From Campylobacterota bacterium (GTDB taxonomy: Bacteria > Campylobacterota > Campylobacteria > Campylobacterales > Sulfurovaceae): a stretch of DNA of 14,728 nucleotides. The position numbers were made by a program. Positions 1-3,000 of this stretch are shown one piece after another. The stretch is from contig JAYEOM010000060.1 of the NCBI GenBank assembly GCA_034722955.1, forward strand, positions 1 to 14,728. The letters run 5' to 3'. Each line of letters starts with the position of its first letter. Position 1 is the first letter of the stretch.

Positions 1-3000
1 CCCTATGCTCTATACTATCCATATGGGTAGATTTGTTTTGTACACTTCCTTATGAAAAGATGTATAGTGAATCCCTGACACTCTCTATATCAAATGTCTC
101 TACACTATCTTGATATGCTATATCATCCAGCTCTATACTATACTCATGCTCCATATCACTTTTTAGATCTGTCAATATATCCAGTTTGTGCATCTGCACA
201 AATGTATCTTTGGTAGCTTCAAGAAGAGTATCTATATCACAGGCATGAGTCCCAAATGAGTCATGTATAGTGGCAAAAGAGTCTGTACCTTTTTTTTGTG
301 ACTCCAGAACAGTTAAAAACAGATGAGTGGCATCTAGCGAGTGGATAAAGTTGGGGGATATGCCTTTGGTCTGTTCTGTGTGATCTATCTTGTCTGTAGG
401 TATTCTGATCTGTATAGAGTATTTTTTGCCATTGTATTTTGTGGATATCTTATCTATCTTGGTCTTGAACTCTTCTTGTATCACCTCTAGTCCTATGATG
501 GGTGTCTTCCATCTCAACTCTCTGTTTTGTTTTGCTGACTTATTGGCTATCTTCTTCATCCACTCTTTATAGGTGCTCGATGATGATAGCTCTTGGCTCA
601 TAGCCTCCCCTATCTTGTCCCTTAGATATATAGAGATAGCATCTGTAGTCGCTTCATCCCATTGCAGTTTTTCTTGCAGATTGTCATTCAAATAATCTTT
701 TATCTGTGATAGTTTTGCATCGGCTCCTGCCCCATAAACTTCTGTCATGACATTTTTCTTGGTCAAATCCCTGCTAATCTCCAGATAGATTTCATCTATA
801 TATTTTTTCTCTATCCTTATCTCCGTTTTATCTTTTTTGATGATATATCCACTATCTCTATCTATCAGCTCTTTTGTCTTGATGGCAACATCTTTATAGA
901 TATCATTAGGTGTTTCTTGATCTTTTGATGGCAAAACATTGACTTTTGATGCTCCCTTTTTGTCTCGCAGGAGTGCAGTGATATGCTGGAAGCCATTGTT
1001 TGAGCCATCCATAGCTATAGGCAGAGCTGACTTGAAGTTGTCAGGATCTTCGATAAATCCTCTATACTCATAAGCAAATGCTAGAAAGCCATAGGGTTTA
1101 TCTGCCTTCCGCAAAAATGTACTATCAAATCTATCTCTGTTTGCAAAAATTCCAAGAATATCATCTTTGTGTATATCTATCCAATTGACCCTGTCATCAA
1201 AAGATATCTTGTCCTCGCCATAGAGATTTGCTCCGTGGATCTTGAACCACCTCTCACCACTCTCTCCTAGAGGCTTCTTGATAGCAAATCTCAGCAGTGC
1301 TTTTGCCAAATCGTCTCCTTGGGGATTGAGTAGTGGCTGTGCAGGGTATGTTCTGCCTCTGAAGTCTACCTGCCATACGAAGTATATCTCATCATATTTT
1401 GCATATTTTTTGGCTTTTTCGATAGTGAGTTTATCGATATTGATTTCACATTCGAGTGTACCAATGCCAGTCAGCACCTCCTGATGTGCCTCTCTCGCTC
1501 TTTTTTGTTCCTGATATTTCTCTAGGATATTTTCGTCTATCTTCTCCTCGGAAAACCCCATCTCTTCGAGCAGCTCTTTTTGTCCTTGAAGTTTTGTCTT
1601 TATCTCTTTGAGGGAGCTGTATCTTTTTTCTTTCTCTTTTTTCAGCTCTTTTATCCTCTCTTTTGCTTGCTCTTTCAGCAGCTTTAGATGACTCTCTATA
1701 TCATCGATCAGATCACTGTTTATCTGCCATTTGGTATCTTGTATTATATTGATGGCCTTGAGCAGTTTGGGGCTAAATGTCTCCCTGCGACTCTCTACAT
1801 TTTGTCCGTCTCTTTTGGTCTTTGATTTCATTATAGATAGGTCGTATTTTGGCGAGCTATCCAAATCCCTGAGAAACCCTCCATCATCTATAGTCGTCCA
1901 TGGAGTCGGGGGAACAATCATAGGTTCAAATGATGGTGGTGTATATTTGAGTATCGCATTGTATATGTTTCGGCTCTCTTTTTCAAATGCTTTGCTAAAT
2001 TTATAGTTCAGAAAGCCCCCATCTTTTTCGTACTCTTCTAAGATACCCAAATTTATCAATTCGGCAAAGAGCTCTATGGCTACATCTATCTCTGTATCGT
2101 TTTCCCAAGCCTCTATCTTGAGCTTGTCTCTTTTGAATCTAAAGGCGACATGTTCAAAGAGAGACTCTGCTATAGTATTGGTGATCCCTTGCCTGCTTGT
2201 AGAGTTGTCATCTTCGCTATGTAGATCTTTGACTAGTAAACCAGATAGAGTCTGGAGTGTTATCCATGCCACTTCACCACTGCTGAGCAGTATGGTGGCT
2301 AGAGACATAACCTGCTCTTTCTGCTTGAGCCCCAGCTCCTCTATACTGCTCTGTAGATCTACATTTTTATCTTTGAGTATTTCAAAAGTTCTCTTGATGA
2401 CAGATGCTTCGACTCTACCCTCTCTTTTGACTTTTTTAGGATTGAGACCGTAGATGGATTTGTCATTTACCTTGTCTTGCAATCCTATGGCAATATTTTT
2501 GGCTTTTTCTTTGAGATTGTAGTCTGGCAAACTCTCCTCGCCATACAGTTTGCATATCTCGCTTTTGTATCTATCGCTGATAAATATCTTCTCTATTACT
2601 TTGGGCATCTTTTTATTTCTCAGGGTACAGATCTCATCTGAGAGTCTCTTGAGATATATTTTGCTGAAGGTATCTTTGGTTGATCGTTTTTGATTTTTTG
2701 ATTTTTTGTCAATGATCTTTTGCATTTTCTCTTCAAAATCTTCGATAGTCTGTGATTGTAGTTTTAGCTGTTTTTCTCGCAGATTCATTGCTTTACCTTT
2801 TTGATAGTTTGCACATATAGACAAAAGAGTCTCGTCTTAGATTTTAGATTATATCTATATTTAGTTGAGATTTCTAAAGTTTGCACATATAGACAAAAGG
2901 TTTCAAAGCTTTGCGTCAAAATATAATACAAAGGAGAGTCAATGCTATGTGAATTAGTATGCATTATAGTTAAAGAGATAGAAGAGAACCTTTAACATAA

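What a model noticed while it worked through the whole genome (the two positions that open the first line are those of the whole stretch)
50..2788. T7-like single-subunit RNA polymerase is a conserved gene of a CorA-type III-B CRISPR-Cas locus
C60:50-2788 encodes an intact, T7-like single-subunit RNA polymerase. It lies inside a CorA-type III-B CRISPR-Cas locus, with Card1-NrN, CorA, Cmr1, Cas10, Cmr3-6 and RT-Cas1 on C60 and C106. The same polymerase clade recurs inside related CRISPR loci from other samples, in several gene orders. It is therefore a component of this CRISPR subclass and not a stray phage gene. What it transcribes is unknown.
Evidence so far: - Family and active site: PF00940 6.6e-94. 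T7 D537, K631, Y639, H784 and D812 are conserved. - Locus genes: CorA by PADLOC 2.8e-113; Cmr and Cas10. - Recurrence: in 80 metagenome loci found through Card1-NrN, the polymerase is in 10, at 35-59% identity. It is in 6 of the 9 fusion loci with at least 3.5 kb of flank. The 50 rows typed NrN-only include L187, a cut fusion that has the polymerase; none of the other 49 has it. - Position: four gene orders with CRISPR genes on both sides. - Independent co-occurrence: 10 RNAP clusters share their longest-contig length with Card1 clusters. - Phylogeny: clade A (25 rows) and clade A plus set B (43 rows) are each monophyletic with support 100, apart fr [...]
(Added by a program. Inside this text positions count along the whole contig: contig position 1 is position 1 of the stretch shown here. 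"Call 12" and the like, gene names such as g00115 and contig names such as C1 are that model's own, and its searches are not shown. The text may have been shortened before it was handed on; [...] marks where a part breaks off. The agent that wrote the report below was given it as the finding of a first reader that could run no searches.)

Follow-up and report, generated by a model that had tools for sequence, protein, structure and literature searches.

The report
CRISPR-locus T7-like polymerase expression module
A phage-type single-subunit RNA polymerase has become a resident part of some CorA-type III-B CRISPR loci, where it sits beside its own private promoters and a string of conserved mini-genes, which points to a CRISPR-linked gene-expression circuit that works without the host polymerase.

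Summary
Window 50-2788 (-) encodes an intact T7-like RNA polymerase beside Card1-NrN, CorA, Cmr1, Cas10, Cmr3-6 and RT-Cas1.

- All 14 clade loci that keep the informative flank carry CRISPR-locus genes or the module. None of 77 phage-type loci does.
- The clade is a single branch (support 100), and I found three gene orders.
- The module is optional. It is in 7 of 27 Campylobacterota-labelled CorA loci and 0 of 52 from other phyla.

New here is a proposal for what the polymerase reads. The 820-bp "spacer" next to it (2789-3612, +) holds:
- Two exact copies of a 20-nt promoter-like motif, unique in the 2.5-Mb genome. Each polymerase subclade has its own 22-25-nt motif, in step with its specificity loop. 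Where whole genomes were checked, the motif occurs only beside the polymerase.
- Conserved mini-ORFs: a membrane peptide, an LPPxxW peptide and Cys peptides.
- A conserved 70-aa protein of unknown family with a weakly RelE/ParE-like fold.
- A 46-nt RNA element with covariation.

Best reading: an orthogonal transcription module driving small, probably toxic, proteins as an ancillary arm of the system. There are no expression data, and the tie to signalling is inferred.

The parts
50..2788 (-). T7-like single-subunit RNA polymerase, 912 aa from the ATG at 2788 (the open frame reaches 2824)
   Evidence: PF00940 6.8e-94. The five T7 catalytic residues are conserved. The full-length fold matches T7 RNAP.
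2848..2876 (-). Sigma-70-like promoter candidate upstream of the polymerase gene (TAGAAA-17-TATAAT)
   Evidence: 10 of 12 matches. It is not above chance (2 found, 4.0 expected), so this is only a candidate for host-driven expression of the polymerase.
2799..2827 (+). Promoter-like motif, copy 1. It points away from the polymerase gene, and its ACATATAGA core starts 25 nt from the polymerase start codon.
   Evidence: (D14), 39, 69, 80, 99: the 20-mer is exact twice in the 2.5-Mb genome, both times here. The next best place needs 3 substitutions.
2871..2899 (+). Promoter-like motif, copy 2, 72 nt downstream of copy 1
2942..2995 (+). Mini-ORF of 17 aa, Cys-containing family (MLCELVCII...)
   Evidence: strong ribosome-binding site. 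Related peptides are in L084, L085, L086, L087, L090, L092 and L094.
3007..3052 (+). Structured RNA element, copy 1 (two small hairpins)
   Evidence: covariance model hit at 51.1 bits, E 9e-10
3079..3165 (+). Mini-ORF of 28 aa, single-helix hydrophobic peptide family (MIPIP...GKKLL)
   Evidence: conserved in A- and B-type loci. Codon-position differences are 114/64/186, which marks it as coding.
3171..3200 (+). Conserved 3' hairpin element, copy 1
   Evidence: (D13): the same element follows mini-ORFs in L083, L084 and L094.
3228..3284 (+). Mini-ORF of 18 aa, '...LPPVLWV-stop' family
   Evidence: 12 family members. 11 of them are followed within 4-24 nt by the RNA element.
3305..3350 (+). Structured RNA element, copy 2
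   Evidence: 58 bits, E 1.8e-11. These are the only two hits in the whole genome.
3371..3583 (+). orf70: conserved 70-aa protein of an uncharacterised family, always beside the polymerase
   Evidence: pLDDT 93.8, fold alpha-alpha-beta3. The best PDB matches are weak and are mostly RelE/ParE-type toxins. No Pfam family.
3583..3620 (+). Conserved 3' hairpin element, copy 2, followed by T8. It ends the mini-gene string and converges with Card1-NrN.
   Evidence: (D13)
3609..5630 (-). Card1 (CARF + PD-D/ExK) fused to NrN (DHH phosphodiesterase). The real start is probably internal (Met 40 or Met 69).
   Evidence: PADLOC DHH_CorA 3.1e-73 and CARF4--CARF_PDDEXK 1.2e-42. DHH motif at residue 501.
5487..6767 (+). 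CorA-family membrane effector
   Evidence: PADLOC CorA 2.8e-113
6777..12900 (+). Cmr1, Cas10 (7788-9056), MNT (9053-9376), HEPN (9333-9767), Cmr3, Cmr4, Cmr5, Cmr6
12991..13648 (+). orf78 plus a PIN-domain protein (a VapBC-like pair)
   Evidence: PIN 3.8e-11
13657..14727 (+). Reverse transcriptase part of RT-Cas1. It runs off the contig and continues on C106.

Best explanation
The polymerase is a domesticated T7-like enzyme that forms, with the DNA next to it, a self-contained transcription module inside a subset of CorA-type III-B CRISPR-Cas loci.

Shown:
- The enzyme is intact and belongs to a clade found only in such loci.
- Each subclade is accompanied by 2-6 copies of its own 22-25-nt motif. 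Where whole genomes were searched (A- and B-type), the motif occurs essentially only beside the polymerase.
- The motifs all point into a string of conserved mini-genes.
- A 46-nt RNA element with compensatory base changes is interspersed among these genes. Its last copy carries a T-run like a terminator.

Inferred:
- The motifs are the polymerase's cognate promoters. The polymerase would then transcribe the mini-gene string and nothing else in the genome, insulated from the host RNA polymerase.
- In the window the polymerase gene itself is probably read by the host enzyme.
- The first private promoter fires divergently from within 25-63 nt of the polymerase start codon in all five A-type loci, which could give feedback by interference.

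Most likely role (inferred, least certain): an ancillary output arm of the type III system. It would deliver small membrane-active peptides and a RelE/ParE-like protein that arrest or kill the infected cell, or that keep being made when a phage shuts off host transcription. How Cas10 signalling, Card1 or NrN connect to it is open.
For: Linkage:
- 14 of 14 clade loci with the informative flank carry CRISPR genes, orf70 or cassettes, against 0 of 77 phage-type loci.
- The 27-row clade has support 100.
- There are three architectures with operon joins.
- Flanks are housekeeping genes.
- No clade member is among the best 80 of 590 viral-contig hits. All of these are at most 38% identical, and none aligns the first ~225 residues.

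Promoter inference:
- A-type: the 20-mer is exact twice in the own genome, both times in the window on one strand. Elsewhere there is 1 place at 3 and 12 places at 4 substitutions.
- B-type: 17 copies with a ~23-nt conserved block in five genomes. Over those five whole genomes there are 18 matches at up to 3 mismatches. 17 lie in the cassette region and 1 elsewhere, and the reversed control gives 0.
- C-type: a different motif, 2-6 copies per locus, on the same strand as the polymerase and CorA/Cmr.
- The motif class changes together with the specificity-loop sequence.
- Multi-copy, ~21-bp, within-genome-conserved motifs coupled to the specificity loop are the published hallmarks of ssRNAP promoters (PMC11880802, passages read).
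- No sigma-70-like hit on the + strand across 2800-3600.

Mini-genes:
- Peptide families recur across A- and B-types.
- Third-position changes dominate in the MIPIP family.
- orf70 is beside the polymerase in 12 loci.

RNA element:
- 90.3% of cells are paired, against 72.1% in shuffles (0 of 500 reach it) and 18-48% when slid. 6 of 8 pairs show compensatory change.
- 38 hits at E<=0.01, all in A- and B-type loci and all antiparallel to the polymerase. 0 hits in 21 non-clade sources.
- In 151 genomes of the order it occurs only in the 3 that carry the module.
- The terminal copies are called terminator-like.
Against: - No expression or biochemical data. No RNA run was available.
- The motifs could be sites for another protein or unusual host promoters.
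- The polymerase shows no sensor domain: only PF00940 and a sub-threshold RPOL_N, and its fold follows T7 throughout. Nothing ties its activity to Cas10 signalling.
- The module is missing from 19-20 of 27 Campylobacterota-labelled CorA loci and from all 52 loci of other phyla, so the CRISPR system works without it.
- C-type loci lack the RNA element, and their motifs point into the polymerase and cas genes, so one regulon does not fit all types.
- orf70's likeness to RelE/ParE toxins is weak (Foldseek E 0.33 or worse; VIA Z 4.5 or less). No antitoxin partner was identified.
- orf70 relatives at 37-43% identity occur without the polymerase in Sulfurimonas and Sulfurospirillum.
- The RNA element is not thermodynamically unusual (z 0.13, -2.42, 0.95, -0.41).
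- Many loci come from similar vent-type metagenomes and are kin, so the counts overstate independence.
- L091 has a split polymerase and L088 a split Cas10, so some copies may be decaying.
Confidence: 0.55

Rival explanations
1. Selfish guest. The polymerase, its promoters and its small toxin-like genes are an addiction or toxin-antitoxin-like cassette of phage or mobile-element origin. It has lodged in these CRISPR loci, as other toxin-antitoxin pairs do, and plays no part in immunity.
For: - The module is optional (7 of 27 Campylobacterota-labelled CorA loci), and close relatives lack it cleanly (L127, L141).
- The same locus also hosts MNT/HEPN and PIN pairs.
- orf70 has a weakly RelE/ParE-like fold.
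- orf70 relatives lie in mobile-element-like regions with DnaB- and SSB-like genes.
- An atlas neighbour cluster is viral.
Against: - Every clade locus with flank is in a CorA/Cmr locus, although the polymerases have diverged to 28-35% identity.
- There are three different insertion positions with operon joins.
- No integrase or transposase in or beside the module.
- Absent from the viral collection, both as a clade polymerase and as orf70.
Confidence: 0.17
2. Host-independent expression of the immune system. The polymerase transcribes the cas operon, the effector genes or the CRISPR array, so that defence keeps running when a phage disables the host RNA polymerase.
For: - In C-type loci (L006, L048, L123) all motif copies lie upstream of, and on the same strand as, the polymerase-CorA-Cmr genes. 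The polymerase stop is 10 nt from the CorA start.
- RNAP-less relatives carry an HTH-WYL regulator in the same slot: 6 CorA loci have WYL, and none of these has the polymerase.
Against: - In A- and B-type loci every motif copy points away from the cas genes, and the string ends in a terminator-like element.
- In the own genome the motif is absent near the CRISPR arrays on C43 and C109 and near the leader on C106.
Confidence: 0.12
3. Target maker. The polymerase transcribes invading DNA. This would provide the target RNA that type III systems need, or RNA substrates for spacer uptake by RT-Cas1.
For: - Type III immunity depends on target transcription (established knowledge; see the abstract of PMC10600005).
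- Among the RNAP-bearing loci that extend past Cmr6, an RT gene is present.
Against: - The enzyme keeps a long specificity-loop hairpin, and private, highly conserved motifs sit beside it. This argues for narrow promoter choice.
- Many RNAP-less relatives also have RT-Cas1.
- The B-type motif has no match in the viral collection.
Confidence: 0.07
4. Stray or decaying phage remnant that lies next to the CRISPR locus by chance.
For: - Prophage-type ssRNAPs do occur in the phylum (G151, G345).
- One flank of the window is missing.
Against: - The reading frame is intact and the catalytic residues are conserved.
- The same neighbours recur in 14 of 14 informative loci.
- It forms a separate clade from the prophage copies.
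Confidence: 0.02

Closest known systems
T7/T3/SP6-group phage RNA polymerases with their multi-copy promoters
   Same: - Same family, catalytic residues and overall fold, including the specificity-loop hairpin.
- Short, multi-copy, near-identical motifs that differ between polymerase lineages, as described for phage ssRNAPs in PMC11880802 (passages read).
- From recall, not tested by any search: the motif cores end in a TA-rich tract followed by G, as T7-group promoters do.
   Different: - Not in a phage: chromosomal, flanked by housekeeping genes, and absent from the viral collection.
- The presumed regulon is a few hundred bases of mini-genes and not a phage genome.
- The N-terminal ~290 residues are not alignable to T7 by sequence.
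- B-type enzymes carry an extra ~170 aa that splits PF00940 into two stretches.
CorA/NrN SAM-AMP type III-B system of Bacteroides fragilis (PMC10600005; passages and figure legends read)
   Same: - Cmr1, Cmr3-6 and a small Cas10 with GGDD.
- A CorA-family membrane effector.
- A DHH-family NrN beside or fused to its partners. NrN-CorA fusions in A. butzleri relatives are reported there and are seen here in L086-L088.
- RT-Cas1.
   Different: - That paper mentions no RNA polymerase gene: 3 uses of 'polymerase', none for such a gene. Its held supplement files have no hit.
- Here NrN is fused to a Card1-type CARF nuclease, and a polymerase module is added.
- SAM-AMP synthesis was not testable here.
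CalpL-CalpT-CalpS, the type III CRISPR route to an ECF sigma factor (abstracts of PMC12751052 and 10.1101/2024.05.08.593097)
   Same: A type III locus that carries its own transcription machinery, so that infection can lead to a change in gene expression.
   Different: - Calp redirects the host RNA polymerase through a released sigma factor, under cA4 control by a SAVED-Lon protease.
- Here there is a complete, separate polymerase with private promoters, and no protease, anti-sigma or sensor domain was found.
T7 polymerase/lysozyme expression logic (pET-type circuits; abstract of PMC10138996)
   Same: An orthogonal polymerase and promoter pair isolates potentially toxic genes from host transcription. 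A small protein is encoded under the polymerase's own promoter.
   Different: - This is a natural cellular locus.
- orf70 is unrelated to T7 lysozyme.
- Whether orf70 acts on the polymerase is unknown.
ToxIN-type (type III) toxin-antitoxin systems (recalled, not read here)
   Same: A small putative RNase-like protein is encoded with repeated copies of a short structured RNA. The concept also fits abortive infection on transcription shut-off.
   Different: - The repeats here are dispersed between mini-ORFs, not in tandem.
- orf70 has no detectable similarity to ToxN.
- No processing or binding has been shown.

Membership tests
T7-like single-subunit RNA polymerase (PF00940) | Polymerase domain scoring above Pfam's gathering cut-off | tested here: met
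   315.6 bits against a cut-off of 22, E 6.8e-94
T7-like single-subunit RNA polymerase (PF00940) | Catalytic residues equivalent to T7 D537, D812, K631, Y639 and H784 | tested here: met
   in the alignment to 1aro_P, all five columns are identical
T7-like single-subunit RNA polymerase (PF00940) | Full-length fold with N-terminal domain, thumb and specificity-loop hairpin | tested here: met
   pLDDT 86.3. TM 0.65/0.69 to the T7 promoter complex 1cez_A over 885 columns. Long beta-hairpin at 786-813.
T7-like single-subunit RNA polymerase (PF00940) | A cognate, multi-copy, lineage-specific promoter | tested here: inconclusive
   Candidate motifs meet the published sequence criteria. Initiation was not assayed.
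Phage-borne ssRNAP (Autographiviridae-type context) | Encoded within a phage or prophage genome | tested here: not met
   no phage genes, and the flanks are housekeeping genes; no clade member among the best viral hits.
CorA-type III-B CRISPR-Cas (SAM-AMP class) | Cmr1, Cmr3-6 and Cas10 with a cyclase GGDD motif | tested here: met
CorA-type III-B CRISPR-Cas (SAM-AMP class) | CorA-family effector with an adjacent or fused NrN/DEDD/lyase | tested here: met
   CorA 2.8e-113 and DHH_CorA 3.1e-73. DHH motif at residue 501.
CorA-type III-B CRISPR-Cas (SAM-AMP class) | CRISPR array next to the cas genes | tested here: inconclusive
   The contig breaks in RT-Cas1. C106 continues it and ends in a leader-like stretch similar to the leader of the array on C109. 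The physical join was not assembled.
CorA-type III-B CRISPR-Cas (SAM-AMP class) | Cas10 makes SAM-AMP, and CorA binds it | not testable with these tools
   This is biochemistry. Known only for B. fragilis (PMC10600005).
Signal-activated type III ancillary effector | A CARF, SAVED or other nucleotide-sensor domain in the protein | tested here: not met
   For the polymerase: only PF00940 and RPOL_N, no PADLOC hit, and a fold that follows T7. Card1-NrN next door does carry a CARF domain.
RelE/ParE-superfamily toxin (for orf70) | Recognisable fold or sequence similarity | tested here: inconclusive
   Most of the top Foldseek and VIA matches are RelE, ParE, HigB, YoeB or colicin D. They are weak (E 0.33 or worse; Z 4.5 or less). 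No Pfam or PDB sequence match.
RelE/ParE-superfamily toxin (for orf70) | A cognate antitoxin gene in the same operon | tested here: inconclusive
   In A-type loci the gene upstream is an 'LPPxxW' mini-ORF. No known antitoxin family was seen.

The most novel reading that the evidence does not exclude
A cellular, domesticated T7-like RNA polymerase serves as the switchable engine of a CRISPR effector arm. On type III activation, the orthogonal polymerase fires from private promoters and floods the cell with membrane-active peptides and a RelE-like protein. The route could be SAM-AMP, Card1/NrN or loss of host transcription. The conserved two-hairpin RNA element would be the sensing or gating step, together with the 'LPPxxW-stop' mini-ORF that precedes it in 11 of 12 cases. 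That step could be a ligand- or ribosome-arrest-controlled switch. This would be the first CRISPR ancillary module that works by orthogonal transcription, and the first non-phage, non-organelle role for this polymerase family in bacteria.
Probability: 0.2. Interest if true: 0.95.

Novelty: categorically new. Interest (0 to 1): 0.85.

Why it matters
Single-subunit T7-type polymerases are known from phages, organelles and linear plasmids, not as working parts of bacterial immune loci. I found no paper that links one to CRISPR:
- Full-text searches found nothing.
- There is no mention in the main texts of four type III or CorA surveys and studies.
- There is no hit in their held supplement files.

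If the module works as proposed, it would:
- add a new logic to type III CRISPR defence, namely orthogonal transcription of a private gene set;
- explain a conserved stretch that looks like empty spacer;
- supply several new, naturally orthogonal polymerase-promoter pairs (three lineages) with matched terminator-like and 5' RNA elements, of obvious use in synthetic biology;
- open a set of conserved micro-proteins to study.

It also makes 'what does a CRISPR-linked polymerase transcribe?' directly testable with a run-off assay.

Tried and rejected
- Earlier findings of this scan were not open.
- Polymerase with orf70 as a complex: the job gave no verdict.
- RNA sequencing runs for window 50-5700: none was listed.
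- Rfam on 2700-3700: 6 matches, all E 6 or worse and far below gathering scores.
- orf70:
  - No Pfam family among the 12 members, nor among 39 of the 87 distant representatives (1 sub-threshold hit).
  - No PDB sequence match.
  - The atlas neighbours are unnamed clusters or DUF3781 at 0.86, a lead only.
  - No relative in viral contigs.
- Self-targeting: none of the 11 spacers from the arrays on C43 and C109 matches the window, or anything else in the genome beyond 13-19-nt chance hits.
- The B-type motif and the RNA element as exact patterns in viral contigs: 0 matches each.
- The leader motif AAAGTT[C/T]GCAAAC on C106 and C109 shares its first 9-10 letters with the A-type motif. I rejected it as a polymerase promoter for three reasons. 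Its core is palindromic, it lacks the ACATATAGA half, and the best copy points away from the array.
- The metagenome scan from the polymerase was swamped by phage enzymes: 5 clade loci among the 80 kept of 541. Metagenome recurrence is therefore undercounted.
- Not repeated:
  - its fourth gene order;
  - its contig-length co-occurrence;
  - its 25- and 43-row clades.
- A phylum sample (401 genomes) found the clade polymerase only in the own genome. The module is rare.
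Full report
WHAT IS THERE

The window is the whole of contig C60 of a 2.5-Mb, 140-contig genome. One open frame, 50..2824 on the minus strand, encodes the polymerase. The database twin of 912 aa fits the ATG at 2788.

- Pfam PF00940 scores 6.8e-94.
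- T7 RNA polymerase is the best solved relative, at E 2.9e-70. Counting along that alignment, T7 D537, K631, Y639, H784 and D812 are all matched by identical residues.
- An AlphaFold model (pLDDT 86.3, pTM 0.82) superposes on T7 polymerase over its whole length. The best match is the promoter-bound form 1cez_A (TM 0.65/0.69, 885 columns). The model has a long beta-hairpin at 786-813, where T7 has its specificity loop.

The rest of the contig is a CorA-type III-B locus:
- Card1-NrN fusion (DHH at residue 501)
- CorA (2.8e-113)
- Cmr1; a 422-aa Cas10 with GGDD at 231
- an MNT/HEPN pair
- Cmr3-6
- orf78 and a PIN protein
- RT-Cas1

RT-Cas1 continues on C106, which ends in a leader-like stretch resembling the leader of the array on C109.

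IS THE POLYMERASE REALLY PART OF SUCH LOCI?

A protein search gave about 20 relatives at 39-77% identity, then a gap to 32% (P0021, which the tree later places inside the clade) and to 28-29% for phage- and organelle-type enzymes.

With an alignment of them (A1):
- Genome contigs returned 15 loci, 13 of them from Campylobacterota;
- the single metagenome scan returned 80 of 541 loci, of which only 5 are clade members and the rest are phage-type.

A tblastn of 14 window proteins against all 95 loci found hits in 13 loci, all clade members, and in none of the 77 phage-type loci. A fourteenth clade locus, L085, has the cassette array. The remaining four (L002, L003, L082, L089) are cut inside the polymerase gene or 48 nt before it. 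L082's genome carries orf70-Card1NrN-CorA-Cmr1 on another contig, L108.

Gene maps show three orders:
- A-type (window, L083, L084): the polymerase is at the locus edge, with mini-genes on the opposite strand, then Card1-NrN, then CorA and the rest.
- B-type (L086, L087, L092; partly seen in L088, L090, L091, L093): Card1, then a 1,080-aa polymerase whose start overlaps the Card1 stop, then the mini-genes convergent with it, then an NrN-CorA fusion and Cmr genes.
- C-type (L048, L059, L006, L123): Card1-NrN, mini-genes, polymerase, CorA and Cmr genes, all on one strand.

Tree: 60 rows, 791 columns, IQ-TREE quick search with LG+G4.
- I took every second phage-type row of at least 780 aa and left out six partial rows.
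- All 15 rows from these loci, plus 12 database proteins, form one clade with SH-aLRT 100.
- The other 33 rows lie outside it: 28 phage or prophage rows, including the two prophage-type enzymes found in the phylum sample, and 5 further database proteins (P0022-P0026).
- That sample of 401 genomes held the clade enzyme only in the own genome.

Viral contigs hold no clade member among the best 80 of 590 hits. All of those are at most 38% identical, and none aligns the first ~225 residues.

Where other genomes show them, the flanks of the loci are housekeeping genes, without integrase or phage genes: L21, RidA, MDH, FabH, PurL, MnmE, YidC, PBP2.

THE CONVERSE CONDITIONAL

The module is optional. 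Among 80 CorA loci (the best of 214):
- the polymerase is present in 5;
- orf70 alone is present in 3 short contigs.

By phylum label, that is 7 of 27 Campylobacterota loci, the single locus labelled Gracilibacteria, and 0 of 52 from other phyla.

Close relatives such as L127 (Card1-NrN | CorA, Cmr genes, RT) and L141 (Card1-CorA...) lack it cleanly.

In L129 and L130 the slot between Card1 and NrN-CorA holds an HTH-WYL regulator and an SPFH/NfeD-like pair. By BLAST, 6 CorA loci have such a WYL gene and none of them has the polymerase. None of 22 RNAP-context loci has WYL. The numbers are small and BLAST sensitivity is limited.

WHAT LIES NEXT TO THE POLYMERASE

The 820 bp between the polymerase and Card1-NrN (2789-3612) is not empty.

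Repeats and comparison of the same region in 11 other loci reveal, on the strand opposite the polymerase:

(i) Two exact copies of a 20-nt motif, at 2808 and 2880.

(ii) Four genes with strong ribosome-binding sites:
- 2942-2995, a 17-aa Cys peptide
- 3079-3165, a 28-aa hydrophobic peptide (MIPIP...GKKLL)
- 3228-3284, an 18-aa peptide ending LPPVLWV
- 3371-3583, orf70

(iii) Two copies of a 46-nt element, at 3007-3052 and 3305-3350.

(iv) Two copies of a 3' hairpin element (3171-3200, 3583-3612), the last followed by T8.

The peptide families recur across A- and B-type loci whose polymerases are only about 30% identical. In the MIPIP family, differences fall 114/64/186 on codon positions 1/2/3, and 108 of 243 differing codons are synonymous. 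These are coding genes.

THE MOTIFS AS PROMOTERS (INFERENCE)

- A-type. The 20-mer occurs exactly twice in the own genome, both times in the window and on one strand. Elsewhere there is 1 place at 3 and 12 places at 4 substitutions. Related copies occur in L083, L084, L085, L094 and L111, 13 in all. A fourteenth regex hit, inside the L082 coding sequence, lacks the upstream half. In all five A-type loci with the flank, one copy lies 25-63 nt from the polymerase start codon and points away from it.
- B-type. 17 copies in five genomes share a ~23-nt block, while the sequence further upstream is unconserved. A search of those five whole genomes at up to 3 mismatches gave 18 matches. 17 are in the cassette region, all on one strand, and 1 is elsewhere at 3 mismatches. 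The reversed pattern gave 0.
- C-type. These loci have a third motif in 2-6 copies. L048 and L123 are near-identical and count once.
- The motif class changes together with the sequence of the specificity-loop region.

Multi-copy, ~21-bp, within-genome-conserved motifs coupled to the specificity loop are the criteria by which ssRNAP promoters are mined from phage genomes (PMC11880802, passages read). From memory only, the cores also resemble the -8 to +1 part of T7-group promoters.

The simple sigma-70 scan finds nothing on the plus strand of 2800-3600. It finds one candidate on the minus strand, between the two motif copies and upstream of the polymerase gene. This is not above chance.

THE RNA ELEMENT

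Twenty-seven copies aligned (A3) fold into two small hairpins.
- RNAalifold finds 7 pairs, 5 with compensatory changes.
- On an 8-pair structure, 90.3% of cells pair, against 72.1% in shuffles (0 of 500 reach it) and 18-48% when slid. The covariation score is 0.509 against 0.172.
- A covariance model found 38 hits at E<=0.01 in 40 sources, 11 of them new. All are in A- and B-type loci and antiparallel to the polymerase. There are none in the three C-type loci or in 21 non-clade sources.
- In the own genome it finds only the two window copies.
- In 151 genomes of the order, it hits only the three that carry the module.
- It follows 11 of 12 'LPPxxW' mini-ORFs within 4-24 nt.
- The last copy in B-type strings is called an intrinsic-terminator-like site.

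Single-sequence folding energies are unremarkable, and Rfam has no match.

ORF70

Twelve sequences align with invariant H6, R10, R14 and a C-terminal VT..K. The model is confident (pLDDT 93.8): two helices and a three-stranded sheet.

Solved structures match only weakly. Most of the top rows are RelE, ParE, HigB, YoeB or colicin D-type toxins (Foldseek E 0.33 or worse; VIA Z 4.5 or less).

No Pfam family fits, even among distant members. The family is small: 210 clusters at 90% identity and 87 at 50%.

Of 16 genome loci with orf70, 11 are in the polymerase/CRISPR context. The other 5 (37-43% identity) lie elsewhere in Sulfurimonas and Sulfurospirillum, near DnaB- and SSB-like genes.

HOW IT MOST LIKELY WORKS

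Shown:
- an intact polymerase of a CRISPR-restricted clade;
- lineage-specific motifs that, where whole genomes were searched (A- and B-type), occur essentially only beside it;
- conserved mini-genes downstream of those motifs;
- a structured RNA element and a terminator-like end.

Inferred:
- The polymerase reads only this string, insulated from host transcription.
- Its products are small membrane-active or RNase-like proteins that act in the type III response, or that persist under host transcription shut-off.

The connection to Cas10 signalling is not visible in the sequences, and the polymerase has no sensor domain.

In C-type loci the motifs face the polymerase and cas genes. There the enzyme may also drive itself and the effector operon.

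The rivals are a selfish guest, expression of the cas genes, a maker of target RNA, and a stray remnant. They are weighed in their own sections.

LITERATURE

- Five full-text searches found no paper that joins a T7-like polymerase to CRISPR.
- 'Polymerase' never refers to such a gene in the main texts, searched by term, of:
  - Chi et al. 2023;
  - Hoikkala et al. 2024;
  - the 2018 CRISPRicity preprint;
  - Shah et al. 2019.
- The held supplement files of three of these have no hit. One PDF of pictures could not be read, and bioRxiv supplements are closed.
- Supplementary tables that I could not see may still list the gene as a neighbour.

Noticed in passing
window 9053-9767: An MNT (nucleotidyltransferase) and HEPN pair sits between Cas10 and Cmr3. 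The same pair is at the same place in L084, at 63-68% identity.
   Followed up: partly
window 12991-13648: A 78-aa ORF and a PIN-domain protein (a VapBC-like pair) lie between Cmr6 and RT-Cas1. The locus therefore holds two toxin-antitoxin-like pairs besides the polymerase module.
   Followed up: no
G000 contigs C106 (1-420) and C109 (390-700): Leader-like regions next to the CRISPR arrays each carry about four copies of a near-palindromic motif, AAAGTT[C/T]GCAAAC. Its first 9-10 letters equal the start of the A-type promoter-like motif. The meaning is unknown.
   Followed up: partly
L129 6986-7912; L130 8290-9216; also L125, L152, L154, L155: RNAP-less Campylobacterota CorA loci carry an HTH-WYL(-WCX) regulator. 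In L129 and L130 it occupies the slot used by the polymerase module elsewhere. WYL and the polymerase never co-occur in the loci examined: 6 with WYL, 0 of them with the polymerase, and 0 of 22 RNAP-context loci with WYL.
   Followed up: partly
L086 14597-16828; L087 5783-7990; L088 4757-7003, compared with window 3609-5630: The NrN phosphodiesterase is fused to CorA in B-type loci and to Card1 in A- and C-type loci. The same domain is thus joined to different partners in sister loci.
   Followed up: partly
window 3228-3350 and 10 related loci: The 'LPPxxW-stop' mini-ORF is followed within 4-24 nt by the structured RNA element in 11 of 12 cases. The layout recalls leader-peptide or arrest-peptide regulators.
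   Followed up: partly
L118, L119, L120, L121, L122: orf70 relatives (37-43% identity) occur without the polymerase or CRISPR genes in Sulfurimonas and Sulfurospirillum. They lie among small membrane proteins and DnaB- and SSB-like genes, which suggests a mobile-element origin for the family.
   Followed up: partly
L091 10025-12612; L088 8072-9481: The polymerase of L091 is split into two frames (678 + 184 aa), and the Cas10 of L088 into two (380 + 87 aa). The cause is either decay or sequencing error.
   Followed up: no
L123, L147: Two C-type loci sit in a genome bin whose record title says Candidatus Gracilibacteria. Their proteins are 91-97% identical to those of metagenome loci L048 and L059. 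The bin assignment may be wrong.
   Followed up: no
G151:C1 and G345:C14 (L102, L103): Two genomes of the same order carry an 826-aa prophage-type ssRNAP among many small same-strand ORFs, with no CRISPR genes nearby. They served as in-phylum negative controls.
   Followed up: yes
window 5426-5630: The longest Card1-NrN frame overlaps the CorA start by 144 nt. Homologues align only from residue 66-69 onward, so the real start is probably Met 40 or Met 69.
   Followed up: partly
L084 803-1531: A 242-aa PD-(D/E)xK-type protein (PADLOC PD_DExK, 5.2e-08) is inserted between Cmr3 and Cmr4 in L084. It is absent from the window.
   Followed up: no
L127 2-2353: The gene beside Card1-NrN in this RNAP-less relative is a DnaG primase that carries an intein with a homing-endonuclease domain.
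   Followed up: no
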